Both the position numbers and the translations under genes were made by a program. Source: a virus (lineage: Duplodnaviria > Heunggongvirae > Uroviricota > Caudoviricetes). Taken from it: a stretch of DNA of 29,094 nt. The notes beneath the pieces were generated by a model. It did no database searches, was not told where the DNA came from, and saw only the letters and a list, made by a program, of their open reading frames with translations. The stretch lies in IMG/VR virus record IMGVR_UViG_2778261543_000004, positions 1-29,094 of that record; one strand, 5' to 3'. Below are positions 1-11,040 of the stretch, piece by piece; within the stretch, counting starts at the first letter, position 1, and every line of letters starts with the position of its first letter.

Positions 1-447
1 TCGGTGGCGGCGGCACAGTTGGTGTGGCGGCCTCAGTCCGGAACAATTTGAAAACCAGAACCTCGCTTAGGCCTGTGTCCATATTACGTGGGTAGGATCA
101 ATCCACACTCTCCGTCGAATCACCGGTACAACGTTAGCGGTTACCTTCTCCACTTTCACAGAACCTAACGGCACTTCGCTGTCGGATGCTTTTGCTCTTT
201 GGAATTATCAAAGCGGCAGATATTCTTTCATCTTAAATTTTACGTCTTTGTCCTGACTGATGTTTATCCTGTTTGGCTGCGAAATAAATATAAAATTAAT
301 ATATATATTGTAATGATATATTTTTATAAATTATTCCCTGCGTGAATTTTAATAAATTTAATCTATCCCTTTATACGCAATACATTTACTTTCCTCTTTT
401 GATGATCTTAAATGTCTTATTTTTCGTAATGTGTATAACAAGGAATA

Positions 448-966
448 GTGATGAAATTTAAAAAATGTCTTCTGCCTGTGGCAATGTTAGCGTCATTCAC
501 TCTGGCAGGATGCCAGTCAAATGCTGACGATCATGCCGCCGATGTTTATCAAACCGATCAACTGAATACCAAACAAGAAACTAAAACCGTTAATATTATT
601 TCCATTCTTCCCGCAAAAGTTGCCGTAGACAACTCCCAAAATAAACGGAACGCACAAGCCTTCGGCGCGCTTATTGGCGCAGTCGCTGGCGGTGTTATCG
701 GCCACAACGTCGGTTCTGGCAGCAATTCCGGAACGACGGCAGGGGCAGTTGGCGGCGGAGCTGTAGGCGCGGCAGTGGGTTCTATGGTGAATGATAAAAC
801 CTTAGTGGAAGGTGTTTCTTTAACATATAAGGAAGGCACCAAAGTGTATACCTCTACCCAGGTGGGTAAAGAGTGCCAGTTTACGACAGGTTTAGCCGTT
901 GTTATTACCACAACGTATAACGAAACGCGTATTCAGCCAAATACTAAATGTCCTGAAAAGAGCTAA
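448..966 (+). CDS. yfgH: Outer-membrane lipoprotein with glycine-zipper segment (YfgH-like)
   Basis: Signal peptide plus lipobox LAGC|Q at the N-terminus; Gly/Ala-rich glycine-zipper stretch (GALIGAVAGGVIGHNVG...GAVGGGAVGAAVG); AAGGA RBS upstream. Symbol assigned from recalled size (172 aa), architecture and the adjacent 179-aa gene, not from an alignment. Confidence 0.75.
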   Translation: MMKFKKCLLPVAMLASFTLAGCQSNADDHAADVYQTDQLNTKQETKTVNIISILPAKVAVDNSQNKRNAQAFGALIGAVAGGVIGHNVGSGSNSGTTAGAVGGGAVGAAVGSMVNDKTLVEGVSLTYKEGTKVYTSTQVGKECQFTTGLAVVITTTYNETRIQPNTKCPEKS

Positions 967-981
967 TAATCAGGAGGAGTC

Positions 982-1521
982 ATGAAGAAAGTTTTTCTTT
1001 GCGCCATCTTGGCCTCCTTAAGCTATCCGGCTATCGCCTCATCATTGCAGGATCAACTCTCTGCTGTAGCAGAAGCTGAACAGCAAGGTAAAAATGAAGA
1101 GCAAAGGCAGCATGACGAATGGGTCGCGGAGCGCAACAGGGAAATCCAGCAAGAGAAGCAACGTCGCGCAAATGCCCAGGCCGCCGCTAACAAAAGAGCG
1201 GCAACGGCAGCGGCAAATAAGAAAGCTCGTCAGGATAAACTGGACGCCGAAGCCTCTGCGGACAAAAAACGCGATCAAAGTTATGAAGATGAGCTACGCA
1301 GCTTAGAGATTCAGAAACAAAAACTGGCGCTGGCAAAAGAAGAAGCCCGCGTTAAGCGAGAAAACGAATTTATCGATCAGGAACTGAAGCACAAAGCTGC
1401 GCAAACCGATGTGGTGCAATCTGAAGCTGACGCCAACAGAAATATGACTGAAGGCGGTCGCGATCTGATGAAAAGCGTGGGCAAAGCAGAAGAGAACAAA
1501 TCGGACAGCTGGTTTAATTAA
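982..1521 (+). CDS. yfgI: Secreted highly charged coiled-coil protein (YfgI-like)
   Basis: Strong RBS AGGAGG 6 nt before the ATG; cleavable signal peptide (MKKVFLCAILASLSYPAIA|SS); K/E/Q/A-rich mature region; followed by an intrinsic terminator. Symbol tentative, based on size (179 aa) and pairing with the upstream lipoprotein. Confidence 0.7.
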   Translation: MKKVFLCAILASLSYPAIASSLQDQLSAVAEAEQQGKNEEQRQHDEWVAERNREIQQEKQRRANAQAAANKRAATAAANKKARQDKLDAEASADKKRDQSYEDELRSLEIQKQKLALAKEEARVKRENEFIDQELKHKAAQTDVVQSEADANRNMTEGGRDLMKSVGKAEENKSDSWFN

Positions 1522-1565
1522 TCGATGTTAGTAACTTCAAGCCTATGATTCTTGAAGATAAAAAA

Positions 1566-1590
1566 CCCTCTGTAGTAACAGAGGGTTTTG
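1566..1590. terminator. Bidirectional rho-independent terminator between host genes and prophage lysis cassette
   Basis: Hairpin CCCTCTG-tagtaa-CAGAGGG flanked by an A-run 5' and a T-run 3', so each strand sees stem plus U-tail. Confidence 0.8.
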
Positions 1591-1740
1591 TTCATTCATA
1601 GTGCAGGGATTAAAATCATTCCCACTCAATTATTTACGGCATATATAACCAATTGACTGGTAACAAATTTATAAGTCAAATTTTTCACCGTACCGTTTTA
1701 TATACCGTCACCGGAAATCAGTACCATGGAAAATGCCATG

Positions 1741-2223
1741 TCACCGGGTCAGTGAATCGTACTGCTTTTCACAGACTCGTCCGGCTTCGGCGGCCCGGTC
1801 AGCGTACTCTGCCAGTTGTCGGTTTCGCTCGAGAGATTTGCTGAGCACGTCGGCAAGCAAAACTCCGGTGTCTGCGGCTGACGTCCCAGCGCCGACAGTG
1901 GCGTTATACTGCCTGAGCTGCTCACGGATGGCAACGAGCTGTTGCTGCAACCTGCCAGCACGAGCGGCAGCATCAAGAGCATCATTACGCGCCTGGTCGA
2001 TCCTCTGCTGCGCTTCACGTTCATTGGTCGCTTTCTCCTGTTCGTCATGCTGACGAGCTTTCTCATCTTCGGCTTTGCGGTCTGCCTTTGCCTGCGCATA
2101 CCCGGCGTCGTACTGTCGATCGCCGTGAGCATTCCAGGCAATCCTGCAGCCGATCACCAGAGCAGCAAGCATCATCACGATAAACAACTGTTTCCAGTAC
2201 GCTTTAACGAATGCCCGGATCAT
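1741..2223 (-). CDS. Phage i-spanin (Rz-like lysis protein)
   Basis: N-terminal transmembrane helix then long Q/R/A/E-rich coiled coil; start overlaps the endolysin stop (ATGA); last gene of the lysis cassette. Confidence 0.75.
   Translation of the reverse strand: MIRAFVKAYWKQLFIVMMLAALVIGCRIAWNAHGDRQYDAGYAQAKADRKAEDEKARQHDEQEKATNEREAQQRIDQARNDALDAAARAGRLQQQLVAIREQLRQYNATVGAGTSAADTGVLLADVLSKSLERNRQLAEYADRAAEAGRVCEKQYDSLTR
1749..1985 (-). CDS. Putative o-spanin (Rz1-like lipoprotein) embedded in the Rz frame
   Basis: Alternative frame inside Rz beginning MMLLMLPLVLAGC (lipobox LAGC), with a Pro/Ser-rich mature part; embedded layout as in lambda Rz/Rz1. Confidence 0.45.
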   Translation of the reverse strand: MMLLMLPLVLAGCSNSSLPSVSSSGSITPLSALGRQPQTPEFCLPTCSANLSSETDNWQSTLTGPPKPDESVKSSTIH

Positions 2224-2849
2224 ACCGCCAGCACCTTACTGGCAGTGATGTACCGCGCGCACCGGTCGTCGATGCCGTTCTGCCCACCATTGATGATCTG
2301 CGTGACGCGCACCAGGTCGCCGGTGTATTTCATGCAGCCTTTTGTTGCGAAGAACCACGCCGCGCTGCGGGCCGCGTATTCGTCCTGCGCCAGCAGCTCC
2401 GGCTGGCTAACCAGCTCAATTTTGAGCCCGTTGCCGCAGTCCCGGTAGTTGTTCAGGCCGGTGATCTGGATAAGTCCGCGCCCGCGGTAGAACCAGCCGT
2501 CGGTCGGCCCGTTGTTCCCCATGCGCTTGCCGTACACCAGATTGGCGATCGCACGCTGGCGCTCCAGCGGTAACGATGGCTCACCAGCACGGCGGCCCAG
2601 CTCGTTGGCCTGACCCTGAGTGAGACGCCCGGCGCGGACGAATCCTACCAGCCCGTTCACGCTGTAGTTGAAGTTCTCCTGCAGCCGTGTGAATCCGCCT
2701 GACTCATGCCCCACCTGCGCGATAAACATCGCCTGATGCAGAGGATTCTCGATGCCAAACTCTTTCATGGCTGCGGTGATATGCAGATACCAGCGCGTGG
2801 CCAGTACCTCACTGATACCAGCTGCACGCTGGAATTGTTTAATGTCCAT
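2220..2849 (-). CDS. Endolysin, glycoside hydrolase family 19 (chitinase-like lysozyme)
   Basis: GH19-type motifs (FIAQVGHESGGF, GRGLIQITG, NYRDCG); lies between holin and spanin; overlaps the holin 3' end. Confidence 0.85.
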   Translation of the reverse strand: MDIKQFQRAAGISEVLATRWYLHITAAMKEFGIENPLHQAMFIAQVGHESGGFTRLQENFNYSVNGLVGFVRAGRLTQGQANELGRRAGEPSLPLERQRAIANLVYGKRMGNNGPTDGWFYRGRGLIQITGLNNYRDCGNGLKIELVSQPELLAQDEYAARSAAWFFATKGCMKYTGDLVRVTQIINGGQNGIDDRCARYITASKVLAV

Positions 2850-3132
2850 GCTGGGACCTCGTTATCTTGAAGATTTGAACCACGTTCCCTTTTGTCTTGA
2901 TGAGAGCAGCCAGGAACACAGCTTTGATGATGACTTCTGACCAGTCGGCGCTGACGTAGTACCCGTAGAACGTTCGGATAGGTACGCTGGCAGCCACGAC
3001 GATCAGCAGGTAGGCGAGCCATCCACCCCACCAGCGATGGCGTGACCCGTCACGGCGGAATAGCAGGACTCGGATTGCAATGCCGCCGCAGATAGCGGCG
3101 TTCAGGATGAGAAGCAGTTCAGGACTGGTCAT
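2839..3132 (-). CDS. Holin
   Basis: 97-aa protein with hydrophobic helices and a charged C-terminus, immediately upstream of and overlapping the endolysin. Confidence 0.7.
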   Translation of the reverse strand: MTSPELLLILNAAICGGIAIRVLLFRRDGSRHRWWGGWLAYLLIVVAASVPIRTFYGYYVSADWSEVIIKAVFLAALIKTKGNVVQIFKITRSQHGH

Positions 3133-3523
3133 CGTCTTTTCTCCCCGGGATCAGGTCGCGCGGATTTTCAGAACGGTGATACAGCCAGATGCCAATGCGG
3201 ACAGCGACGATAGACGATACGAATGCCCCGGCAGAAAACACAATGCCCTTCTCGAAAGAGTCAGGTGTGATTTTCGGGATCCAGCTCGCTATTCCGATAA
3301 GCAATGTCGCTGTGGCTTTATAGAAGAGAACTCCGCATAGGTAGCTGAGGAACGCCAGCAGTAACCGACGCTTAATCGGATACTCTACTGCCGAGGTAAC
3401 AAAAATTACCGCACCAGCAAGCGAACCTAACGCTACCTCGGGAGGGACACCGACGACAACTGAAGCCAGCGCACCCAGGCTAAGCCCCTGATTCAGCGAT
3501 TCCGTGGTTAACGTGTGCGACAT
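3119..3523 (-). CDS. Phage membrane protein, putative second holin or antiholin
   Basis: About 134 aa from the ATG at 3523 (MSHTLTTES...), 3-4 predicted transmembrane helices; first gene of the lysis operon, overlapping the holin start. Confidence 0.6.
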   Translation of the reverse strand: MSHTLTTESLNQGLSLGALASVVVGVPPEVALGSLAGAVIFVTSAVEYPIKRRLLLAFLSYLCGVLFYKATATLLIGIASWIPKITPDSFEKGIVFSAGAFVSSIVAVRIGIWLYHRSENPRDLIPGRKDDDQS

Positions 3524-3585
3524 AGTGACCACCGTTTAATGTGCATAAAGAACCCCCTTAGTTGGTGAGTTCATCATACACAATA

Positions 3586-3641
3586 AACCATATGTGGTTT
3601 AATTATGATCGGAATGCTCTTAACGAAATTACCTTACGGGT
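3586..3641 (-). promoter_or_regulatory. Late-operon upstream element, copy C (ATTACCTTACGGGT plus AACCATATGTGGTT)
   Basis: Third copy of the bipartite motif also found upstream of the tailspike and portal operons; lies between the acetyltransferase terminator and the lysis operon start. Confidence 0.45.
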
Positions 3642-3666
3642 ATTAAAAAGCCCACCTGAGTGGGCT
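3641..3666 (-). terminator. Rho-independent terminator after the acetyltransferase moron
   Basis: Hairpin AGCCCAC-ctga-GTGGGCT followed on the - strand by TTTTTAATA. Confidence 0.7.
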
Positions 3667-3670
3667 TCTA

Positions 3671-4659
3671 TTACTTGGTTAAGCTTGCTGGCAGGTGGCT
3701 TTTAATTATGTTTTTACCGATGAACACTGACCCTTCATCAGTAGGGTGACCGTAATCCATGGACATAAGCGTAAAGCCACTATCTACCCTTGACCTACAC
3801 TTCAGTTCTGTACCTTCACGTGCACACAAGCCATCAAGTATGTCGACAAAATCATATCCTTCATTGTCTTTTGATATCGTCTTCATTTTGTTATTTGTCG
3901 CGACAATCTGTTTATCCAAAAATCTGTTATCAATGTAAATATCATTGGGATTATAGTTTTTCGCAACAATAAGCGGCAGGCTCCCTTTCCACTGAGGAAC
4001 AGGACCAAGGACTATAACTTTTTTAACACCCAGTGCGTGTATTTTTTCAGCAATATCTTGCCAGTCTGTTTCTTCATGCTGGAATCTCTGAGCTAATACC
4101 ACAACATCAGGTTTAACAATATTTATATCTTCAATGGCTTTTTCATTGGATAGATTACATCCAATTGTGGCACTTATAACTCCAGGGAATTTATGGAGAC
4201 TCGGTTTACAACTTGAAGCAGCAAGTTGATAGAATGGAACGCCATCTTTTAGAAGTGATCTTATCCCTAAAGAAAGTGCTCCCGCGTGAGAGTCTCCCCA
4301 TAAGAAGACACCTCCCCTTTTATCAGTATCGACACATGATTTATCGATATGATCCAGTTTTTCACTGCTGTTACATTTATCCCACATCCCATTATTATCA
4401 AACCGATATCCATCGTAATGCACCACAGTTTCATTACCGGTAGTTTTTGTGATACTTCGCATATCAGTGTTAGCGCCATTAGAAATATATATACCAACAG
4501 CTAAAGCTAATGATGCAAAGTACAGAAACTCCTTTTTAACGCCGCCTCTACTTTTGAAAACACTTTCTATATATTTAAATGACAACATACCCATCGCCAC
4601 TGACGCAACAATTCCAATGAGCGTTGTTAATATAGAAACACCACCATATGTATTATATA
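3671..4659 (-). CDS. O-antigen acetyltransferase, C-terminal SGNH-hydrolase fragment (frameshifted)
   Basis: Last AT3 helix (GGVSILTTLIGIVASVAMGMLSF) followed by an SGNH/GDSL-like domain (GVFLWGDSHAGALS...); upstream of ~4660 this frame is not meaningful, so it is the downstream half of a split gene. Confidence 0.7.
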
Positions 4660-5528
4660 TATAGATAGATCGGCCAGTGCCACAAATAAATTGAATATGA
4701 ATACAACCCAATCTTTTGCGCAAAAGATGAATCTAAGATAATGTTATCAGAACACGACCACAATATGATCATCGTGCCGATGATAGGCAGCAGCGCATTG
4801 TAGCTAGGCCAGTACGATTCCTCGCTAAAAATAAAGCAGGATACTAATATGGTAGCAATCCCGATATATGGGAAAGGTTTTCGTTTAAATATTGATGTCG
4901 GGAAAAGATAAACCACGCCGCCAGCAATCATCTCCCATGCCCTTGTTGGAAGCAAGAAATATGATGAGCTAACTAAAATCCTAGATGCATAAATGCTAAG
5001 TGCTAAACTTAATAGGCCTGCAATCAGAATTAATATCCTAGATACCTTTAAACTGAAAGCCTTTCTGATAATATAAATGGCTAAAGGATATATAATATAG
5101 AATTGCCATTCTACAGATAGAGACCAAGTATGAAGTAACCACTTCTCTTCTGCACCAGGAGCAAAGTAGCTTGACTCCTTCCAATAGACGATATTTGAAA
5201 CAAATAGAAGGCTTGACGCAGCGTGCTTCGCCAATGTCTTAAATTCAGGAGTGTACATGTTGTACCATCCGTATACCATTACGCAAATTAGCATAACGGC
5301 AAGCGCAGGCACTATCCTTCTGGCTCGTGCTTTATAAAAGCCCCACAGAGAAAATTTATTTCCTTCTAATCCGCCAAATATTATTGACGTCATCAAAAAA
5401 CCAGAAATTACAAAGAATACATCTACGCCAACAAATCCACTCGGGACCCATCCTCTGTTGAAGTGGAACAGGACTACAGCAAGAACTGCTATAGCCCTGA
5501 CTCCATTGATATCCTTCCTGAAGTCCAT
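4653..5528 (-). CDS. O-antigen acetyltransferase, N-terminal acyltransferase-3 membrane fragment (frameshifted)
   Basis: Typical AT3 N-terminus (RAIAVLAVVLFHF...GFVGVDVFFVISGFLMT) and multiple transmembrane helices, ending ...YLWHWPIYLYI at a stop inside a (TA)5 tract. Confidence 0.75.
   Translation of the reverse strand: MDFRKDINGVRAIAVLAVVLFHFNRGWVPSGFVGVDVFFVISGFLMTSIIFGGLEGNKFSLWGFYKARARRIVPALAVMLICVMVYGWYNMYTPEFKTLAKHAASSLLFVSNIVYWKESSYFAPGAEEKWLLHTWSLSVEWQFYIIYPLAIYIIRKAFSLKVSRILILIAGLLSLALSIYASRILVSSSYFLLPTRAWEMIAGGVVYLFPTSIFKRKPFPYIGIATILVSCFIFSEESYWPSYNALLPIIGTMIILWSCSDNIILDSSFAQKIGLYSYSIYLWHWPIYLYI
4655..4663. repeat. (TA)n dinucleotide tract at the acetyltransferase frameshift
   Basis: ATATATATA at the junction of the two acetyltransferase reading frames; adding one TA unit fuses them into a single ~619-aa ORF. 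Confidence 0.8.
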
Positions 5529-5625
5529 GCCTCAATGCCTCACACAGTTACGATACGAGGCATGTTATACATTTAGACTGTGGATTTCATCATTTAAGCA
5601 AAAGTTAGTTTGAATCGTTCAAGTA

Positions 5626-7920
5626 TTACGCTATCACTTTAAGTGTGAGTTTGTACATCAGGCTTACACCGGTTGCTGATATCGGCGTCTGCAGTACCAC
5701 CGCTGTGTTGCTTGCTGATACCACTGCTAATGGAGCGCTTGATCCAGCTGAAGATTGCGAGCTTGCCACGACATGCGCAGTGTAGTCATCGATTCTAAAT
5801 CCTGTTGGGGCGTCGAGTTGCACCCTGCCATCGCCAGCATTGATAACTTTTGTTTGCCATGCGTTATGCCTGCTATATCCGTTGCGTATGTAGTCGTACG
5901 TCTCATTGGCCTTCATGTATCTTTCCATATACATGCAACCAATAGATTCAATGCACTGATAGTTTGCTGGAGCCAGCTTAAGGTTGGTTGATGCTCCGCC
6001 AAGTCTTGAAGCACCCCCAAGATGCATTCCGCATTGCTCGAACGTGATCTTCGAGGATGGGTCTACAGTAACTACGTATGGTGCAAAGGTGCTATCTGTA
6101 TACTTTGAAAGAACAGGCGCATAGTGTTTTACCGATATGTTACTAAACTGACCGACGTATATTAAGCTTCGATTTGAAGATGCAATAGCTGTCTCATCGG
6201 CAGCACCCATAAGAGTTCTCATCACCTTAGCAACGCCTTGAGTTCCAAGCCCCTTGATTAATACACCATCAGTGGAGTCTTGGAGATAATGAAGCTTAAA
6301 TTCTGCTTCAACGCTACCGATGCAATTAATATGGGCACCTTCCCACGCTTCTATCCCCATATCAAATGTTACGTTACTGCACGTATCAAGCGTAATGCCC
6401 ATTGCTGTTTCATTTACACTGTCGTAGTTGCCGTACTGCGCAAGCGCTCCTTCAAACCAACCGTGGAATTTTGCATAATTACAGTTCTTCAGATAGATGG
6501 GGAATGGGGTATGATCCGCCTGAAGTTCAATATGATGTGATGTAGTTGAGCCTCCAACCGTGTCCTTTTCCGGTGATAAGCTTACGGCGTCAAAGTAAAC
6601 GCCCTTGTGGCAAGAATCAAATCTAATAATCCCTTGCGTTCCCCACGCGCTGTATCCAAAACATGCATATTCAGCACCAAACATGCTCACATCCAAATTT
6701 GCTTTTATAGCCATATTTAGGTGTAAAGCAATGGTGCCAAGTCCTTTACTTGCAACATGCCTTGCGGTGTCCCACTTAAAGGTTAATCCCTTAATGGTCA
6801 AATCCCTAAATGCAGAGTCAGAGCTACCAGCTTCATCAGAATCCATAACTCTGCCAATGCATAGCTGCCCGAATTGATAGCTCGAAGAATTGCTAGGGAC
6901 AGATCTAATAAACCCAGTGGTAAAGTCAAAACCTCCTAGAGGCGGTGCGATCCAGGCTGATTTTTGTCCGAATTCTAAATAATCAGTACTCCCAAAGTGA
7001 TACATCTTATTTTTTTTAACATTGATTTGGCACTTCCCTCTGGCATAGTTCTCAGCCGCCTGGCAAGCTGCCCAATCGATGGTCTGAGTTAATGATGTTA
7101 CGAACGGGTATACGGCCTGGGCAGCGGACAGTGTAAGGTATCGCTCAGATAAAGGATGGGCGGTACCGTCCCCGATCGCCCCAAACTGCTCGGGAGTAAC
7201 GTAGATCAACAGTTGAGAAAGGTTTCCCTGAGGCTGCACACCAATAAGCGTCGGCCCGGTTGGCTTTGCCAGTTCAACAAAAACATCTGTTGCCGATCCA
7301 GATGGTGGCATCGTTACATATGGATTGCCTGCGCTGTCGAACGCAATAATTTTGTTCGCCCTGGTCGCAGCATTCGGTAACGAAGGAATTGGTTCTGGAG
7401 TTCTGAGAGTGCGGCTAAGGTTAGAGCTGGCAACGCCATCAACATAATTTTTGGTCGCCGCGTCCTGAGGGTCCCGAGGGTCGCGCACATTCCTGATGTA
7501 GTTGTTTAGGGCATCGTACCAGTTGGCGATACTCGACGGCTTACGCAGCGCCAGGCGGAACATGCTGCCAACCTGCTGTATCAGCATCGTCAGTTTATCG
7601 AATGCGTCTTCATGCACCTCAGCGAAGAACTTACCCTGGTTGCGCAGATCGGTATCCTGCGTAACCGGTAGCTCTCTTGATATAGAGATCTGATAACCGT
7701 TGGCCAATGCCTTCGACAGTATTATATTACCGCCGCTATAGCCTCCCGCACCAGTGACTATGTAATCAGTATCAAGAATCAGCTCTGTGATGTTCTCGTT
7801 CAGGTCAACAACCTGCACTACTAAATCAGATTTCTGGAAAATCCTGAAGGTATAAGGGAATGTCGTTGTAACACCGTTACCGGTGTATTCGTTGTGGTCA
7901 ACTTCGGTTGAGACCGTCAT
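5626..7920 (-). CDS. Tailspike / receptor-binding protein with beta-helix depolymerase-like domain
   Basis: 764 aa; conserved podovirus tail-fibre N-terminal anchor (MTVSTEVDHNEYTGNGVTTTFPYTF...); central pectate-lyase-like motif (FGAIGDGTAHPLS...); position after the internal virion proteins as T7 gp17 / epsilon15 tailspike. Confidence 0.8.
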   Translation of the reverse strand: MTVSTEVDHNEYTGNGVTTTFPYTFRIFQKSDLVVQVVDLNENITELILDTDYIVTGAGGYSGGNIILSKALANGYQISISRELPVTQDTDLRNQGKFFAEVHEDAFDKLTMLIQQVGSMFRLALRKPSSIANWYDALNNYIRNVRDPRDPQDAATKNYVDGVASSNLSRTLRTPEPIPSLPNAATRANKIIAFDSAGNPYVTMPPSGSATDVFVELAKPTGPTLIGVQPQGNLSQLLIYVTPEQFGAIGDGTAHPLSERYLTLSAAQAVYPFVTSLTQTIDWAACQAAENYARGKCQINVKKNKMYHFGSTDYLEFGQKSAWIAPPLGGFDFTTGFIRSVPSNSSSYQFGQLCIGRVMDSDEAGSSDSAFRDLTIKGLTFKWDTARHVASKGLGTIALHLNMAIKANLDVSMFGAEYACFGYSAWGTQGIIRFDSCHKGVYFDAVSLSPEKDTVGGSTTSHHIELQADHTPFPIYLKNCNYAKFHGWFEGALAQYGNYDSVNETAMGITLDTCSNVTFDMGIEAWEGAHINCIGSVEAEFKLHYLQDSTDGVLIKGLGTQGVAKVMRTLMGAADETAIASSNRSLIYVGQFSNISVKHYAPVLSKYTDSTFAPYVVTVDPSSKITFEQCGMHLGGASRLGGASTNLKLAPANYQCIESIGCMYMERYMKANETYDYIRNGYSRHNAWQTKVINAGDGRVQLDAPTGFRIDDYTAHVVASSQSSAGSSAPLAVVSASNTAVVLQTPISATGVSLMYKLTLKVIA

Positions 7921-7972
7921 GTTAAATCTCCAGATAGTCGCAGCACCCGTTGCGCCGCATATCCGGTTATTC

Positions 7973-8037
7973 TATTACCTGAAAAACCATATATGGATAG
8001 ACAACCCATAAATACGAACAGATATTACCTTTCAGGT
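7973..8037 (-). promoter_or_regulatory. Late-operon upstream element, copy A (TATTACCT, CCATATATGG, TATTACCTTTCAGGT)
   Basis: 15-bp exact repeat TATTACCTTTCAGGT (8023-8037) shared with 24633-24647, plus perfect palindrome CCATATATGG (7987-7996); upstream of the tailspike start. Confidence 0.5.
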
Positions 8038-8076
8038 GATTCGCAAAACGTGCTGGATAGCAAATAAATTATTTGA

Positions 8077-8096
8077 TACTGTATATTTATACAGTT
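8077..8096 (+). promoter_or_regulatory. LexA operator (SOS box)
   Basis: TACTGTATATTTATACAGTT matches the LexA consensus TACTGTATATATATACAGTA (CTGT-N8-ACAG core); TTGATA -35-like hexamer overlaps its 5' edge; 20 bp upstream of the 8116 ATG. Confidence 0.8.
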
Positions 8097-8115
8097 ATTG
8101 CATGGAGAAGATAAG

Positions 8116-8373
8116 ATGCAGCAGTATCACTATCCACTGGAAGACGGATTTACCGAAAGGATTCACACGCCGGGAGGCGTCAGATCACTGGTGGAGGGAT
8201 CGCACTTGATGAAATTACTCCGGGAGCTCGATAAGGATGGATTTAATGTCGATGGCCCACTTGCCGAACTGACTGCACTGATTAACTACGTCACCAGCTC
8301 ACAGATGTCTATGCGGGATCTGCAAACACATCTCGACTATTGTGCCGAACAATTACGAAAACAAACCACATAA
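8116..8373 (+). CDS. SOS-regulated small hypothetical protein (moron in late region)
   Basis: 85-aa ORF from ATG 8116 with GGAG RBS 8 nt upstream, directly behind the LexA box; opposite strand to the flanking structural genes. No recognisable family; not DinI-like by eye. Confidence 0.65.
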   Translation: MQQYHYPLEDGFTERIHTPGGVRSLVEGSHLMKLLRELDKDGFNVDGPLAELTALINYVTSSQMSMRDLQTHLDYCAEQLRKQTT

Positions 8374-8379
8374 AGAAAA

Positions 8380-8408
8380 GGCCGCTAGAGCGGCCTGTGA
8401 CATGTCAC
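8380..8408. terminator. Hairpin plus GTGACATGTCAC palindrome between convergent genes
   Basis: GGCCGC-taga-GCGGCC hairpin (8380-8395) adjacent to GTGACATGTCAC (8397-8408); T-tract lies on the - strand (TTTTCTTTAT), so it best terminates the - strand small ORF. Confidence 0.65.
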
Positions 8409-8415
8409 GCTCACG

Positions 8416-8556
8416 TTATGACAAGCCTATGTACCCTGCTACACCAGATAATATCAAAATAACTGCAACAGCAAATTCACCATCACCAATGATACATTTA
8501 CGGTTCATAACGCCAAGTGCAATAAGCGCAAACACAACAAGAATAAAAGCAATCAT
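8416..8556 (-). CDS. Small two-helix membrane peptide (46 aa)
   Basis: ATG at 8556 with AAGGA RBS; translation MIAFILVVFALIALGVMNRKCIIGDGEFAVAVILILSGVAGYIGLS verified by hand; followed by palindrome and terminator. Below the 60-aa ORF-track cutoff. Confidence 0.45.
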   Translation of the reverse strand: MIAFILVVFALIALGVMNRKCIIGDGEFAVAVILILSGVAGYIGLS

Positions 8557-8628
8557 TTCTCATCCTTATTGCGGAGTGACATCCTGCGGTCGCCACCAGT
8601 ATGTCTGGTTAAACTCTTTCTTCGAACG

Positions 8629-11040
8629 TTACTCCATTTTACGCAAATAACCTGGTGAAAAATACTCCTGCATCTGGTTAAATATCATATGATCGAGAGC
8701 CGCCTTCAAGTACCAGAGATTCGCACCTGGCATCAGCCCCTTCCCCAGCTTAACCATATCACCACCAGTCTGCTCATTCTTCCCTTCCACAGCATTTAAC
8801 GGTATGCCCTGAGCTATCTTAACGATATCATCAACAAGGCCTGCCACCGGACCAAGCATCGACGCCAGCGCGCCGCTTCCGTACCTAGTGTGATCTGACA
8901 ATAAAAAGTCACCGTAAAGGCCAAGACCACCACCTTTCAGTAGAGCACCAAGCCAAAATTTAGCAGCATCTTCTCCTGTCATCTCGCGAGGATTACGACC
9001 AGACGCAAGGTCGTTAAGTTGCTGCGACAAAGCGCCAAGAATGGTCGTACTGGCAATAAACGTCGCAATATATGCCGCACGCCCACCAGCAGACGGCATA
9101 CCCATAGCGCGTGACCAGTGACGCATAACCACCGAGATAGGGAACGATTTAAACAGGAAAACACTTCTCGTTAATTCACCCTTCCATGTTCCACGCTGAA
9201 TACCAGAACCGGTTATCAATTGCTCACGCGCGCCAGGTGTAATAACAGCCATATCAACTTCTTCAGTTACGGCACCGAGCAGTTTACGCATTGCCTCAAA
9301 TTTCACACGTTCAGGCTCACCAAGATGTTTAACTGCTGAATCAGGGATACGCATAATGCTTTCCGGTGTCAGCATCGTATTATTGCCGTTCCCCCAGTCC
9401 TCCTGTTGTGCCAGCTTCCATACGCTCCAGTCTGTTTCAGTAATCCCTTTGCTTTTCAGGATACGAAAATCAGAGTCATCGAGGCTACGAAGGTCTGGTG
9501 TCCGTGACACTACTTCTCCCAGGCTTCCCATCATTGTTACGCCATAGGCGCGCTTGTGCGCATCTGACCATGCTGTAAGTCCACTGGCACGCATTACCGC
9601 CGTTGCCGCCCAACGAGACACAGACGGCCCCATATTATCCATCGCCCAGCGGTTAACGCTGCCAAGTAGAGATTCCATCGCCAGACCAGCGCGGCGCGCC
9701 CGCGCAAGCTCAGTACGATTCGTTGGGTCCATAGCTTCAAGCTGGTTGCGAAATAACTGGTTCATTGGAAGGTTGGTAACCTTCGCAGACAGATACATGG
9801 TTCCAAGATCAGAGAACGATGACAGCAACGCGGATCCGAGTCTGCTGGCAACCAGCCAGTTGCGGATATTGTCAGACCATCGCGCGATGTGCGGATTCGC
9901 TACAGGCTGTGTCTTTCCGGAAATAAAGTTGTACAGATTCTCTGTGTTGTTCGCCAGCCGCTCGACTTTACCGGTTTTACTCGGGTTAGCTGTTGCCGTT
10001 TCTGCCTTAACCTGATCAAGAAGGGAGCGGAAAACATGATCGGGGTTTGGACCATATGTTTCCACCAGAGCAATATCTTTACTGATACCTTCCAGGTGAC
10101 CGACCATGATTTCCCATAGAGAGCGATCGCCATAAAGTTGTTGATATTGGAGATAGGAATCTGCATCTTTGAAATGTATCTGTCGTGATGCATTACCACG
10201 GTTAGCACGTGCGCCGGAAATTCGCATTCCTGTATCAGTAAGCTTATTCAGCCCACCAGTAGCGATCGTGTTATAAGCCTCTCCAAGAAATGCAGACAAC
10301 TCGGCATCGTTCATCAGTTGTCCATCGGCTCGGGTATAATATTTGCGATCCAGCTTACCTATAACATCGCTAACCCACTTATCCTTTGATACCGCCCCAA
10401 CCTTTTCCATAGAATGATGTTGAGGGATCCCCCAGTTTTCGAGATAGCCAATGTCCCCACCAGCATCATTAAACCGGCGGCGCAGCAGCTCTGTAACTTC
10501 TCTCCACGCCTTAGCACCTTTTCTTGCTTTAGCATTGCCAGTATTTTGCCCCCGCATTTCATATACCAGGTCACGTACGCCCGCTTCATCTTCAAACAGA
10601 CCAAAAAAGCGAGGATCAACTGCTTCGAATGCCTCCTGCAATTGACTCAATGCATAATCACGGGTAGCTTTTGTTCTGGATTCAACAGAGAGGAAATTAG
10701 ATTTACCGTCTGCATTAAAAGCTATAGTACGGTTAAGAGCGCCAAGTTTCCCATCAGCCCCTTGATAGCTATTGATAAATTTATCCAATCTCTGACGCGC
10801 GGCTATAGTGAGAGCCACACGACGTTTCTTTAATGTCGCTTCTCGCTGTAATTCTTCAGATGCCAATTGTGCTGCTCGATATAGCCGCTCTGATTCGGAA
10901 AGTTGTCGCCACGACATCGGGTCATCACGAGCAATGGAGCGCATATTTCGATAAATGCGGTCTTCAATGTTCTGTATTTCTCGCGCCGTTAACGTGCGCT
11001 GCGCCGCCTGCTGGACCGCTTGTATACATTCCTGTCTCAT
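8629..11040 (-). CDS. Internal virion / ejection protein (T7 gp16-like position)
   Basis: 803 aa; GAGAGG RBS; last large gene of the internal-protein block before the tailspike. Confidence 0.6.
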   Translation of the reverse strand: MRQECIQAVQQAAQRTLTAREIQNIEDRIYRNMRSIARDDPMSWRQLSESERLYRAAQLASEELQREATLKKRRVALTIAARQRLDKFINSYQGADGKLGALNRTIAFNADGKSNFLSVESRTKATRDYALSQLQEAFEAVDPRFFGLFEDEAGVRDLVYEMRGQNTGNAKARKGAKAWREVTELLRRRFNDAGGDIGYLENWGIPQHHSMEKVGAVSKDKWVSDVIGKLDRKYYTRADGQLMNDAELSAFLGEAYNTIATGGLNKLTDTGMRISGARANRGNASRQIHFKDADSYLQYQQLYGDRSLWEIMVGHLEGISKDIALVETYGPNPDHVFRSLLDQVKAETATANPSKTGKVERLANNTENLYNFISGKTQPVANPHIARWSDNIRNWLVASRLGSALLSSFSDLGTMYLSAKVTNLPMNQLFRNQLEAMDPTNRTELARARRAGLAMESLLGSVNRWAMDNMGPSVSRWAATAVMRASGLTAWSDAHKRAYGVTMMGSLGEVVSRTPDLRSLDDSDFRILKSKGITETDWSVWKLAQQEDWGNGNNTMLTPESIMRIPDSAVKHLGEPERVKFEAMRKLLGAVTEEVDMAVITPGAREQLITGSGIQRGTWKGELTRSVFLFKSFPISVVMRHWSRAMGMPSAGGRAAYIATFIASTTILGALSQQLNDLASGRNPREMTGEDAAKFWLGALLKGGGLGLYGDFLLSDHTRYGSGALASMLGPVAGLVDDIVKIAQGIPLNAVEGKNEQTGGDMVKLGKGLMPGANLWYLKAALDHMIFNQMQEYFSPGYLRKME

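What the first reader, a model, noticed from the sequence alone, without database searches (positions are those of the whole stretch)
3540..5625. AT-rich serotype-conversion moron inserted between tailspike and lysis cassette
The acetyltransferase segment is visibly more AT-rich than the flanking phage genes. It has its own terminator (3641-3666) and sits directly downstream of a tailspike with a polysaccharide-depolymerase-like beta-helix. Pairing an O-antigen-modifying enzyme with an O-antigen-targeting tailspike is the known lysogenic-conversion logic of phiV10-type phages, where the prophage alters its own receptor to exclude superinfection. The module looks horizontally acquired.
Basis: partly seen in the sequence, partly recalled or inferred. 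Interest (0 to 1): 0.5.

Follow-up and report, generated by a model that had tools for sequence, protein, structure and literature searches.

The report
Frameshifted prophage O-antigen acetyltransferase beside tailspike
This is a known kind of prophage gene that acetylates the host's surface sugar coat so that phages using that coat as receptor are blocked; in this genome it is broken by loss of one TA unit, and it was acquired as one block with the sugar-recognising half of the neighbouring tailspike.

Summary
Window 3540-5625 is AT-rich (gene 39.0% GC vs 50.6+/-1.4% for the prophage, z -8), lies between tailspike and lysis genes of a phiV10/epsilon15-like prophage beside yfgI, and ends in a good intrinsic terminator (3665-3645, minus strand).

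- The gene is an AT3-SGNH (OafA/OafB-type) O-acetyltransferase with all defining motifs.
- It is only 21% identical to phiV10 Oac, which is AT3-only and on the opposite strand.
- Here it is split into two ORFs (4653-5528, 3671-4723) by loss of one TA from a (TA)6 tract (4654-4663). Adding TA restores the exact 619-aa protein indexed in 67 blocks of the contig collection.
- So this lysogen is predicted not to be converted, unless the deletion is an assembly error or reverts.
- It is not a separate insertion. The exchanged unit is a 3.56-kb cassette (7200-3645): tailspike receptor-binding domain, acetylase and terminator. The cassette recurs in different E. cloacae and Hafnia prophage backbones.
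- Four chromosomes with the cassette carry O29-family wzx or wzy, pointing to O29-type O-antigen as target.
- No own promoter was found.
- The gene was also knocked out independently by IS3- and IS5-family insertions and a G-run frameshift.

A known kind, moderately interesting.

The parts
4653..5528 (-). 5' fragment of the acetyltransferase gene: AT3 domain, 291 aa, TMH1-9. It ends at a premature TAA (4655-4653) created by the frameshift.
   Evidence: PF01757 E 3e-32, profile positions 2-293 of 326. Carries R11-X10-H22, FFVISG at 38 and R68xxR71. Exact protein WP_089674638.1 is seen on one contig only, 29,094 bp long like this window.
4654..4663 (-). (TA)5 tract, the site of the 2-bp deletion. 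All intact copies have (TA)6.
   Evidence: The only differences from GPEC1405 in 3300-5800 are this TA indel and one intergenic SNP at 3591. (TA)6 is present in L001, L006-L011, L013-L015, L020 and L021. Adding TA gives the exact 619-aa P0001.
3671..4652 (-). 3' part of the acetyltransferase gene, now in the +1 frame: TMH10, TMH11, linker and the SGNH domain with GDS (residue 412 of the intact protein) and DxxH (592).
   Evidence: PF19040 E 2.5e-25. Its only solved relative is 6SE1, the OafB SGNH domain, E 8e-7. Hydropathy. It is annotated elsewhere as a 305-aa SGNH protein, WP_089674636.1.
5529..5625 (-). 97-bp AT-rich spacer between the tailspike stop and the acetyltransferase start, with GAGG about 9 nt upstream of the ATG. 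No consensus promoter.
   Evidence: Promoter scan found nothing on the minus strand. The spacer is identical in the E. cloacae cassette copy and partly conserved in Hafnia.
3645..3669 (-). Intrinsic terminator hairpin plus U5, lying at the joint between cassette and backbone.
   Evidence: dG -17.4 kcal/mol, z -3.0. Retained in the E. cloacae cassette copy and also in the EC2 backbone that carries a different acyltransferase.
5626..7200 (-). Tailspike receptor-binding, depolymerase-like part (about residues 240-764). It is the other half of the exchanged cassette; 44.6% GC over 5626-7028.
   Evidence: Similarity to EC2 and phiV10 resumes only at 7029 and 7385. Contiguous with the acetylase in E. 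cloacae (91.9%) and Hafnia (73%). AF2 and Foldseek give beta-helix tailspikes.
7201..7920 (-). Tailspike N-terminal particle-binding domain, Uetakevirus backbone type, about 51% GC.
   Evidence: 68-82% aa identity to the N-terminal ~230-254 residues of TL-2011b, phiV10, epsilon15 and SPN1S tailspikes. phrog_1640 E 9e-147.
1741..3532 (-). Backbone lysis cassette downstream: holin-like, holin, GH19 endolysin, DUF2514 spanin. The prophage end abuts yfgI.
   Evidence: Pfam hits. Same layout in phiV10, EC2 and GPEC1405.

Best explanation
The segment is the distal half of a horizontally exchanged 'recognise-and-mask' cassette in a Uetakevirus-like (phiV10/epsilon15-type) prophage integrated beside yfgI. 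The cassette (window 7200-3645) holds the receptor-binding beta-helix part of the tailspike, a 97-bp spacer, an AT3-SGNH O-acetyltransferase of the OafA/OafB(GtrC family 2) type, and a terminator.

In its intact form the mechanism is inferred from OafA/OafB work. The ten-helix AT3 domain carries an acetyl group from cytoplasmic acetyl-CoA across the inner membrane. The periplasmic SGNH domain, tethered by TMH11, transfers it to the O-antigen. That blocks binding or cleavage by the cognate tailspike, which protects the lysogen from superinfection and from its own released virions. The target is most likely an O29-type O-antigen.

In this window the gene is switched off by loss of one TA from a (TA)6 tract. 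The AT3 part terminates after residue 291, before TMH10, and the SGNH module is no longer fused to it. As sequenced, this lysogen is predicted to carry unmodified O-antigen. The mutation is recent: there is no other change in the gene.

Shown: composition, domain content, motifs, the frameshift, cassette boundaries and co-transfer, and association with O29 hosts. Inferred: acetylation of O29 O-antigen, exclusion function, and loss of activity.
For: Domains and motifs:
- PF01757 plus PF19040.
- phrog_6705 'O-antigen acetylase', E 3e-145.
- R-X10-H, FFVISG, RXXR, GDS and DxxH are all present, as defined in PMC7448272.
- The SGNH domain's only solved relative is the OafB SGNH domain, 6SE1.

Frameshift:
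- A single TA indel and one intergenic SNP separate the window from GPEC1405 over 3300-5800.
- The window has (TA)5; 12 other loci have (TA)6.
- Repair with one TA gives the exact 619-aa protein, which is indexed in 67 blocks of the collection.
- L010, L012 and L015 are 99.7-99.8% identical to the window over 7.8-10.4 kb; L010 and L015 show (TA)6 directly, and L012 encodes the exact intact protein.
- The SGNH triad is essential in OafA: S412A and H590A leave less than 1% activity (PMC7448272). SGNH is also reported as essential for OafB and OatA (PMC9833829).

Slot and cassette:
- phiV10 oac, the EC2 acyltransferase and the PAS61 acetylase occupy the same slot.
- Similarity breakpoints lie at 3666/3633 and 7029/7385.
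- A contiguous 3559-bp block at 91.9% occurs in an E. cloacae prophage whose tailspike has a PF18668 N-terminal domain and whose tail genes include NlpC/P60. A 73% copy occurs in a Hafnia prophage with baseplate-J and sheath-initiator genes.

Composition: 39.0% GC, z -8.

Host link:
- GPEC1405 carries O29-family wzx and wzy.
- An O29-family Wzx or Wzy (one of the two was seen for each) lies on the same S. dysenteriae (4,292,356 bp), E. cloacae (4,868,468 bp) and E. coli (4,765,383 bp) chromosomes that carry the cassette.
- Accession neighbourhoods suggest the same for two more assemblies.

Functional precedent: BTP1 GtrC, an AT3-SGNH acetylase next to a tailspike, protects the O-antigen from the prophage's own tailspike and blocks infection (PMC4413052). 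phiV10 Oac is another precedent (PMC9558356, PMC11854483).
Against: - No biochemical or LPS data exist for this enzyme or for any close relative; the best characterised homologues are only about 31-33% identical.
- Whether O29 or S. dysenteriae O-antigen is O-acetylated could not be verified in the held literature.
- The window's own serogroup is unknown, because the contig holds no O-antigen cluster.
- No promoter was found, so expression in the lysogen is unproven.
- The 2-bp deletion rests on one assembly and could be an assembly error.
- The SGNH fragment keeps TMH11 and could in principle still reach the periplasm, so complete loss of function is inferred, not shown.
Confidence: 0.72

Rival explanations
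1. The (TA)n tract is a slipped-strand contingency site. The gene switches reversibly ON at (TA)6 and OFF at (TA)5 or (TA)7, giving mixed populations of acetylated and non-acetylated cells. The window would have caught an OFF-phase clone, not a dead gene.
For: - The change is exactly one repeat unit, with no other mutation in the gene.
- (TA)6 is unexpected from the gene's codon content (P about 0.003 under codon shuffling). It is retained in alleles 92% and 73% identical at nucleotide level.
- Two further assemblies, from different prophage lineages (95.5% and 99.7% to the window), have contig breaks close to the tract. In GCA_022903635.1 the gap flanks the tract by 20 and 22 nt (both sides seen). 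For GCA_012494125.1 only the downstream contig was seen, starting 26 nt after the tract. This is what a de Bruijn assembler would do with mixed repeat lengths.
- AT3 acetylase genes are repeat-phase-variable in Haemophilus influenzae (oafA), and oafB is epigenetically phase-variable in Salmonella (PMC9558356).
Against: - Only one variant length (5) was seen, against the intact (TA)6 protein indexed in 67 blocks; no (TA)4 or (TA)7.
- Scans of three more collections found no further copies.
- Six dinucleotide units is short for efficient slippage in a mismatch-repair-proficient enteric (established knowledge).
- The 94%-identical allele has the tract interrupted: LYIFN, TATATATATTT.
- Other lineages lost the gene by irreversible IS3- and IS5-family insertions and a G-run frameshift, which fits ordinary decay.
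- Given the peptide LYIYN and this gene's codon usage, (TA)6 arises about 7% of the time, so its retention is weak evidence.
- The contig breaks could equally reflect low coverage of AT-rich DNA.
Confidence: 0.12
2. The 2-bp deletion is a sequencing or assembly artefact. The isolate really has the intact 619-aa gene and is a converted lysogen.
For: - The truncated 291-aa protein is recorded on a single contig only.
- Two other assemblies fail to assemble across this very tract, so the site is technically troublesome.
- Everything else in the gene is identical to the intact allele.
Against: - Loss of a whole dinucleotide unit in a 12-nt tract is not a typical short-read error (established knowledge; the platform of this assembly is unknown to me).
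- Many assemblies pass through the tract cleanly with (TA)6.
- Independent disruptions elsewhere show the gene is often lost for real.
Confidence: 0.12
3. The enzyme's substrate is not the O-antigen but another envelope glycan (capsule, colanic acid, ECA or peptidoglycan), and the link to the tailspike is incidental.
For: - AT3-SGNH proteins acetylate diverse polymers, for example peptidoglycan (OatA) (PMC7448272, PMC9558356).
- Identity to characterised O-antigen acetylases is only about 31-33%.
- Some structural matches of the tailspike are capsule or colanic-acid depolymerases.
Against: - The gene is physically coupled to one particular receptor-binding domain in three different prophage backbones.
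- Both track O29-family O-antigen genes across three species, including Shigella.
- The best family match is the phage 'O-antigen acetylase' phrog_6705, over the full length.
- All characterised occupants of this slot act on O-antigen (PMC4413052, PMC9558356).
Confidence: 0.08
4. The split gene still works. The AT3 fragment and a separately translated TMH11-SGNH fragment reassemble in the membrane as a two-piece acetyltransferase.
For: - The 305-aa fragment starting MLSFKYIE... keeps a basic N-terminus followed by TMH11, which could act as a signal anchor placing SGNH in the periplasm.
- All catalytic residues are intact in both pieces.
- Separate membrane-acyltransferase and SGNH partners exist in other systems (MBOAT PatA with SGNH PatB, PMC12148441).
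Against: - The AT3 fragment lacks TMH10, which is part of the ten-helix AT3 fold (PMC9833829).
- No Shine-Dalgarno sequence is evident before the internal starts (sequence reading).
- Most copies of the gene are fused, and so are the hits listed.
Confidence: 0.04

Closest known systems
GtrC(BTP1) / OafB (family 2 GtrC) of Salmonella prophage BTP1, and OafA of S. Typhimurium
   Same: - Same two-domain AT3-SGNH architecture, with R/K-X10-H, FFXISG, RXXR and the Ser/Asp/His SGNH triad.
- Prophage-borne and adjacent to the tailspike gene.
- Function shown for BTP1: it acetylates O-antigen rhamnose, protects against the prophage's own tailspike and blocks infection (PMC4413052, PMC7448272).
   Different: - Only about 31-33% identical.
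- BTP1 is a P22-like Lederbergvirus, and its gtrC is convergent with the tailspike and sits with a gtrA remnant next to int. Here the gene is co-directional with the tailspike, lies upstream of the lysis genes in a Uetakevirus-like backbone, and is frameshifted.
- The host O-antigen is O29-type, not Salmonella O4/O9.
Oac of Escherichia phage phiV10 (O157 O-acetyltransferase / superinfection immunity)
   Same: Same phage genus-level backbone and the same slot between tailspike and the holin-like gene. Also AT-rich (31% GC). O-antigen acetylation blocks phiV10 infection (PMC9558356, PMC11854483).
   Different: phiV10 Oac is AT3-only (338 aa, no SGNH), 21% identical, and on the opposite strand. 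It is paired with a different tailspike receptor-binding domain.
O-antigen acetylase of Escherichia phage vB_EcoP_PAS61 (Uetakevirus, O146 host)
   Same: Identical layout and orientation: tailspike, then a 618-aa AT3-SGNH gene, then holin-like gene, holin and endolysin.
   Different: 34% identical overall (47% in the AT3 part). It has a different tailspike receptor-binding domain and host serogroup, no terminator hairpin at the joint, and the gene is intact.
Repeat-mediated phase-variable oafA of Haemophilus influenzae
   Same: An AT3 surface-glycan acetylase whose reading frame is set by a simple-sequence repeat inside the ORF (PMC9558356).
   Different: There the repeat is a tetranucleotide tract in an organism that relies on such loci. 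Here it is a short (TA)6 tract, one variant has been observed, and there is no evidence of switching.

Membership tests
AT3-SGNH fused carbohydrate O-acetyltransferases (OafA/OafB type) | N-terminal acyltransferase-3 domain (PF01757) | tested here: met
   E 3.2e-32, 112 bits against a cut-off of 31. In the window it is truncated at profile position 293 of 326.
AT3-SGNH fused carbohydrate O-acetyltransferases (OafA/OafB type) | C-terminal SGNH domain (PF19040) fused in one polypeptide through TMH11 and a linker | tested here: not met
   Both domains are present, but in the window they lie in different frames. They are fused in the (TA)6 allele. TMH10 at 298-318 and TMH11 at 335-352 by hydropathy. 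So the locus belongs to the family, but as a frameshifted copy.
AT3-SGNH fused carbohydrate O-acetyltransferases (OafA/OafB type) | R/K-X10-H in TMH1, FFXISG motif, RXXR in loop 2-3 (PMC7448272) | tested here: met
   R11...H22, VFFVISGF (38-43) and R68-A-R-R71. R11, H22, R68 and R71 are invariant in the alignment with BTP1 GtrC, PAS61, EC2 and phiV10 Oac.
AT3-SGNH fused carbohydrate O-acetyltransferases (OafA/OafB type) | SGNH catalytic triad: block I GDS and block V DxxH | tested here: met
   GDSH at 412 and DYGH at 592 of the intact protein.
AT3-SGNH fused carbohydrate O-acetyltransferases (OafA/OafB type) | O-acetylation of O-antigen demonstrated | not testable with these tools
   Needs LPS chemistry or serology. 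The only support here is indirect: co-transfer with a tailspike receptor-binding domain and association with O29-family wzx/wzy.
Phage moron / lysogenic-conversion cargo | Composition distinct from the phage backbone | tested here: met
   39.0% against 50.6+/-1.4% GC, z -8.2.
Phage moron / lysogenic-conversion cargo | Variable presence or identity at a fixed slot among related phages | tested here: met
   phiV10 (AT3-only, opposite strand), EC2 (386-aa AT3-only), PAS61 (a different AT3-SGNH) and SPN1S (gtrA plus acetylase) all use the tailspike-holin slot.
Phage moron / lysogenic-conversion cargo | Own terminator | tested here: met
   Hairpin plus U5, dG -17.4, z -3.0. It is, however, also present in the EC2 backbone with a different cargo.
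Phage moron / lysogenic-conversion cargo | Own promoter active in the lysogen | tested here: inconclusive
   No sigma-70 consensus match on the minus strand in 5529-5625. Weak or non-canonical promoters and read-through from the tailspike cannot be excluded, and there are no expression data.
Uetakevirus-like (phiV10/epsilon15) prophage | Tailspike N-terminal anchor domain, virion genes and lysis cassette of that type and order | tested here: met
   The tailspike N-terminal ~230-254 residues are 68-82% identical to phiV10, epsilon15 and TL-2011b. Window 8371-9199 is 95.8% identical to phiV10 at nucleotide level. The lysis cassette is collinear.
Simple-sequence-repeat phase-variable (contingency) gene | Repeat tract inside the ORF whose unit changes shift the frame | tested here: met
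   (TA)5 against (TA)6 at 4654-4663.
Simple-sequence-repeat phase-variable (contingency) gene | Several repeat-length alleles among close relatives, or within one culture | tested here: not met
   One (TA)5 against 12 fetched loci with (TA)6, and the intact protein indexed in 67 blocks. No other lengths were seen. Two assembly gaps at the tract are suggestive only. Read-level data were not available.
Simple-sequence-repeat phase-variable (contingency) gene | Tract conserved across alleles beyond what the coding sequence requires | tested here: inconclusive
   Kept in alleles 92% and 73% identical but interrupted in the 94%-identical protein allele. About 7% is expected from codon usage given the peptide.

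The most novel reading that the evidence does not exclude
The 3.56-kb block (tailspike receptor-binding domain, AT3-SGNH acetylase, terminator) is a self-contained 'recognise-and-mask' unit for O29-type O-antigen. It hops between prophage backbones with different tail gene sets (podovirus-like, lambdoid-like, contractile-tail-like) in Escherichia/Shigella, Enterobacter and Hafnia. Its internal (TA)6 tract acts as a slippage switch, so lysogen populations would alternate between masked cells (acetylated, phage-resistant) and unmasked cells. By analogy with BTP1, the O-antigen of unmasked cells would be trimmed by the prophage's own tailspike. That would be repeat-based phase variation of a prophage receptor-masking gene in Enterobacteriaceae, where such switching is classically epigenetic (Dam/OxyR at gtr operons).
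Probability: 0.1. Interest if true: 0.6.

Novelty: new member of a known kind. Interest (0 to 1): 0.35.

Why it matters
For annotation, this locus should be called a frameshifted O-antigen acetyltransferase, not two proteins (an 'acyltransferase' and an 'SGNH hydrolase') as databases currently record it.

For biology, it gives a concrete and cheaply testable pair of near-isogenic natural alleles, (TA)6 and (TA)5, of an uncharacterised acetylase tied to serogroup O29. O29 is among the E. coli O types listed for EIEC identification (PMC6156305), and an O29-family Wzy is also found in S. dysenteriae.

It also documents that the receptor-binding half of a tailspike and the enzyme that masks that receptor can move as one contiguous block between different prophage backbones. 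This matters for predicting phage host range and serotype from genomes: a prophage tailspike predicts the host O-type, but an adjacent intact acetylase may make that host resistant.

None of this changes the known logic of lysogenic conversion.

Tried and rejected
- Near-identity DNA search of phages: only the holin flank matched; no phage record holds this acetylase.
- Scans of JGI metagenome contigs, IMG/VR viral contigs and GTDB species-representative genomes, using the sequences flanking the TA tract with a variable gap: 0 hits each, so no further repeat-length variants.
- Rfam on 1400-8500 at E up to 0.1: nothing, so there is no known riboswitch or sRNA in the spacers.
- Promoter scan: no minus-strand consensus promoter upstream of the gene. 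Manual reading of the spacer found only a TG-TATAAC-like element with no usable -35 and incorrect extended -10 spacing, so I do not claim a promoter.
- Programmed +1 frameshifting or transcriptional slippage at the tract: considered and rejected. The intact allele is the common state, the P-site AUA codon before UAA has no favourable +1 re-pairing, and TA dinucleotides are not known transcriptional slippage sites (inference from established knowledge).
- Attempt to learn whether E. coli O29 or S. dysenteriae O-antigen is O-acetylated: the structure paper (PubMed 16784735) is not held, and the reviews and searches gave nothing. My recollection that S. dysenteriae type 11 is the O29 counterpart is unverified and is not used as evidence.
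I used the cluster look-up instead.
- Pfam gave no hit for the tailspike, so the fold claim needed structure prediction.
Full report
**What is at the coordinates**

On the minus strand the window reads as follows:
- tailspike, 5626-7920 (764 aa);
- a 97-bp spacer;
- an acyltransferase region, 5528-3671;
- a hairpin;
- the lysis genes: holin-like 3119-3532, holin 2839-3132, GH19 endolysin 2220-2849, DUF2514 spanin 1741-2223;
- the host genes yfgI and yfgH.

The backbone is phiV10/epsilon15-like. The N-terminal ~230-254 residues of the tailspike are 68-82% identical to those of TL-2011b, phiV10 and epsilon15. Window 8371-9199 is 95.8% identical to phiV10 DNA. In phiV10 the order tailspike, oac, membrane protein, holin, endolysin, spanin, (att), integrase is the same.

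**Checking the observation**

The AT-richness is real and large.
- The gene is 39.0% GC and its spacers 37-38%.
- The lysis genes are 57.5%, and 1858-bp windows elsewhere in the prophage average 50.6+/-1.4% (minimum 46.3%; z = -8.2).
- GC3 falls to 0.32-0.41, against 0.58-0.76 in the lysis genes.

The terminator is real. A GC-rich hairpin (core 3665-3650) followed by five U starts 5 nt after the stop codon, with dG -17.4 kcal/mol and z -3.0 against shuffles.

The tailspike's depolymerase-like fold was tested. Pfam is silent. An AlphaFold2 model of residues 191-764, built on 30 homologues, has mean pLDDT 86 and pTM 0.83. Its best PDB matches are all beta-helix phage tailspikes or depolymerases: LKA1 gp49, phi297 gp61, AS12 gp42, Phi92 colanidase, HK620 and Sf6. 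Each has probability 1.0, though TM-scores are only 0.3-0.44.

The 'acetyltransferase' is two ORFs in different frames.
- ORF 4653-5528 (291 aa) is an AT3 domain (PF01757, E 3e-32) that stops at profile position 293 of 326.
- ORF 3671-4723 carries the SGNH domain fused to AT3 proteins (PF19040, E 2.5e-25).
- The stop of the first ORF lies inside a TATATATATA run at 4654-4663.

Only one complete E. coli genome, GPEC1405, carries the whole module, at 99.9% identity and as a single annotated 619-aa CDS. Over window 3300-5800 the two sequences differ only by one intergenic SNP (3591) and by one TA unit: (TA)5 in the window and (TA)6 in GPEC1405. Adding one TA to the window's sequence gives exactly that 619-aa protein.

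That protein is indexed in 67 blocks of the contig collection. In all 10 places shown it sits in the same slot beside yfgI. The 291-aa truncated protein is recorded on a single contig of 29,094 bp, which is this window.

Three loci (L010, L012, L015) are 99.7-99.8% identical to the window over 7.8-10.4 kb, including the divergent lysis genes. L010 and L015 show (TA)6 directly, and L012 encodes the exact intact protein. The deletion is therefore recent, and the gene shows no other decay.

**Family assignment**

The intact protein has every feature that Pearson et al. (PMC7448272) use to define AT3-SGNH O-antigen acetyltransferases:
- R11-X10-H22;
- FFVISG;
- R68xxR71;
- GDS (412);
- DxxH (592).

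It matches the phage family phrog_6705 'O-antigen acetylase' over its full length, E 3e-145. Its only solved relative by sequence is the OafB SGNH domain, 6SE1. Identity to characterised members is low: about 31-33% to BTP1 GtrC and the Salmonella Uetakevirus acetylases, and 21% to phiV10 Oac, which is AT3-only.

Hydropathy places the frameshift (after residue 291) before TMH10 (298-318) and the linker helix TMH11 (335-352). TMH1-10 form the AT3 fold, and the SGNH domain is essential for transferase activity (PMC9833829). SGNH triad mutants of OafA retain less than 1% activity (PMC7448272). I therefore infer loss of function in this window. This is inference, not measurement.

**It is part of a larger exchanged cassette**

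- Similarity to the E. coli EC2 prophage runs 99-3666 and resumes at 7029. Similarity to phiV10 runs to 3633 and resumes at 7385.
- The tailspike receptor-binding part (5626-7028) is itself compositionally intermediate, at 44.6% GC.
- Searching with that part found tailspikes 85-93% identical in Hafnia alvei and Enterobacter cloacae that carry other N-terminal anchor domains.
- In E. cloacae CP183059.1 the tailspike has a PF18668 N-terminal domain and the upstream tail genes include an NlpC/P60 protein. There, window 7200-3645 is matched as one contiguous 3559-bp block at 91.9% identity: receptor-binding domain, identical spacer, acetylase and terminator hairpin.
- In a Hafnia prophage with baseplate-J, wedge and sheath-initiator genes the same block is present at 73%, with an intact 619-aa gene.
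- A further contig has the same receptor-binding domain followed instead by gtrA, gtrB, a glucosyltransferase and an AT3-only gene.

So the mobile unit is receptor-binding domain plus masking enzyme, not the acetylase alone. The hairpin lies at the joint. It is kept both in the E. cloacae cassette copy and in the EC2 backbone, which has a different acyltransferase.

The slot itself is a known cargo site. phiV10 oac (opposite strand, 31% GC), a 386-aa AT3-only gene in EC2, a 618-aa AT3-SGNH gene in PAS61 and gtrA plus an acetylase in SPN1S all sit there. [quoted passage not shown]

**Which receptor**

GPEC1405's O-antigen cluster is annotated with O29-family Wzx and Wzy, plus L-FucNAc and CDP-glycerol genes. 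An O29-family Wzx or Wzy at 90% identity or more (one of the two was seen for each) lies on the very chromosomes that carry the cassette:
- S. dysenteriae (4,292,356 bp);
- E. cloacae (4,868,468 bp);
- a second E. coli (4,765,383 bp, carrying the 94% allele).

Accession neighbourhoods suggest the same for two draft assemblies, including the one most like this window. This supports an O29-type O-antigen as the tailspike's receptor and the acetylase's substrate. The window's own serogroup cannot be read from a 29-kb contig. I could not verify whether O29-type O-antigen is known to be O-acetylated.

**How it most likely works**

By analogy with OafA/OafB and BTP1 GtrC, the intact enzyme acetylates the O-antigen in the periplasm. 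The cognate tailspike can then no longer bind or cleave it, which protects the lysogen from superinfection and from its own virions (PMC4413052, PMC7448272).

In this genome the gene is off. By the BTP1 precedent, a lysogen lacking the acetylase but keeping an intact tailspike may even show shortened O-antigen.

I found no sigma-70-type promoter in the spacer, so expression in the lysogen, or read-through from the tailspike, remains open.

**Pseudogene, phase variant or artefact?**

In favour of reversible slippage:
- The change is exactly one repeat unit.
- (TA)6 is unexpected from the gene's codon content (P about 0.003) and is kept in diverged alleles.
- Two assemblies from different prophage lineages break close to the tract. 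In GCA_022903635.1 the gap flanks it by 20 and 22 nt. For GCA_012494125.1 only the downstream contig was seen.

Against it:
- Only one variant length has been seen, against the intact (TA)6 protein indexed in 67 blocks.
- No further variants turned up in three more collections.
- The tract is interrupted in the 94%-identical allele.
- The peptide LYIYN would give (TA)6 about 7% of the time from codon usage alone.
- The gene has been lost independently by irreversible routes: an IS3-family insertion after about codon 374, an IS5-family insertion after about codon 523, and a G4-to-G3 frameshift at codon 405 in E. cloacae, which may itself be a homopolymer sequencing error.

I therefore favour an ordinary recent loss-of-function at a slippage-prone site. 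Phase variation and assembly error are each given about 0.1.

**Verdict**

The finding is real and the general reading is right: a horizontally acquired acetylase of surface polysaccharide, sitting next to an O-antigen-type tailspike in the phiV10 slot. The kind is already known. The specific additions are these:
- The copy is frameshifted.
- It is AT3-SGNH, not phiV10-Oac-like.
- It travels fused to the tailspike's receptor-binding domain across different prophage backbones.
- It tracks O29-type hosts.

I class it as a new member of a known kind, of moderate interest.

Noticed in passing
window 1741-3532: The lysis cassette is unusually GC-rich for this prophage: 57.5% overall, endolysin 60.6% with GC3 0.76, and a peak of 63% at 2251-2750, against 50.6% elsewhere. 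It differs by 10-15% between prophages that are otherwise nearly identical (window vs GPEC1405). At least two allelic forms circulate: holin of 97 or 102 aa, and spanin of 160 or 165 aa. This is a second mosaic module, next to the cassette.
   Followed up: partly
window 1522-1740 (and L001, L004, L006-L015): The prophage end lies directly beside yfgI. The same integration site is used in every E. coli copy fetched, including EC2, which carries a different cargo. The att core was not delimited.
   Followed up: no
L022:8092-13946 (Logan SRR20799038): The same tailspike receptor-binding domain (about 80% nt identity to window 7203-5636) is followed by a different modification module on the opposite strand: gtrA, gtrB, a PF14264 glucosyltransferase and an AT3-only acyltransferase. 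So there are alternative ways of masking what is presumably the same receptor.
   Followed up: no
L020:8132-9990 (E. cloacae CP183059.1): The cassette's acetylase is split again here, but by a 1-nt deletion in a G-run (GGGG to GGG, codon 405), just upstream of the catalytic GDS motif. It may be a true mutation or a long-read homopolymer error.
   Followed up: partly
L023:1-40, L024:1-40 and L025:5575-5678: Two more independent knock-outs of the same gene in E. coli: an IS3-family element after about codon 374 of the 94% allele, and an IS5-family element after about codon 523. Both were recognised from multi-copy junction sequences at contig ends.
   Followed up: yes
L018:3137-5413 (Salmonella phage SPN1S): The homologous-slot acetylase of SPN1S is annotated as two CDSs, whereas SPN9TCW and SPC32H have one. 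This may be another frameshifted copy in a sequenced phage; the break point was not examined.
   Followed up: no
window 8098-8373 (+) and 8332-8396: A small opposite-strand ORF (91 aa) lies between the tailspike and the virion genes, in the position of phiV10 gp24 / epsilon15 gp19. Two terminator-like hairpins lie at its 3' end, overlapping the last ~40 nt. Function unknown.
   Followed up: no
window 299-308: The only other dinucleotide run of 5 or more units in the window is an (AT)5 in the host intergenic region upstream of yfgH.
   Followed up: no
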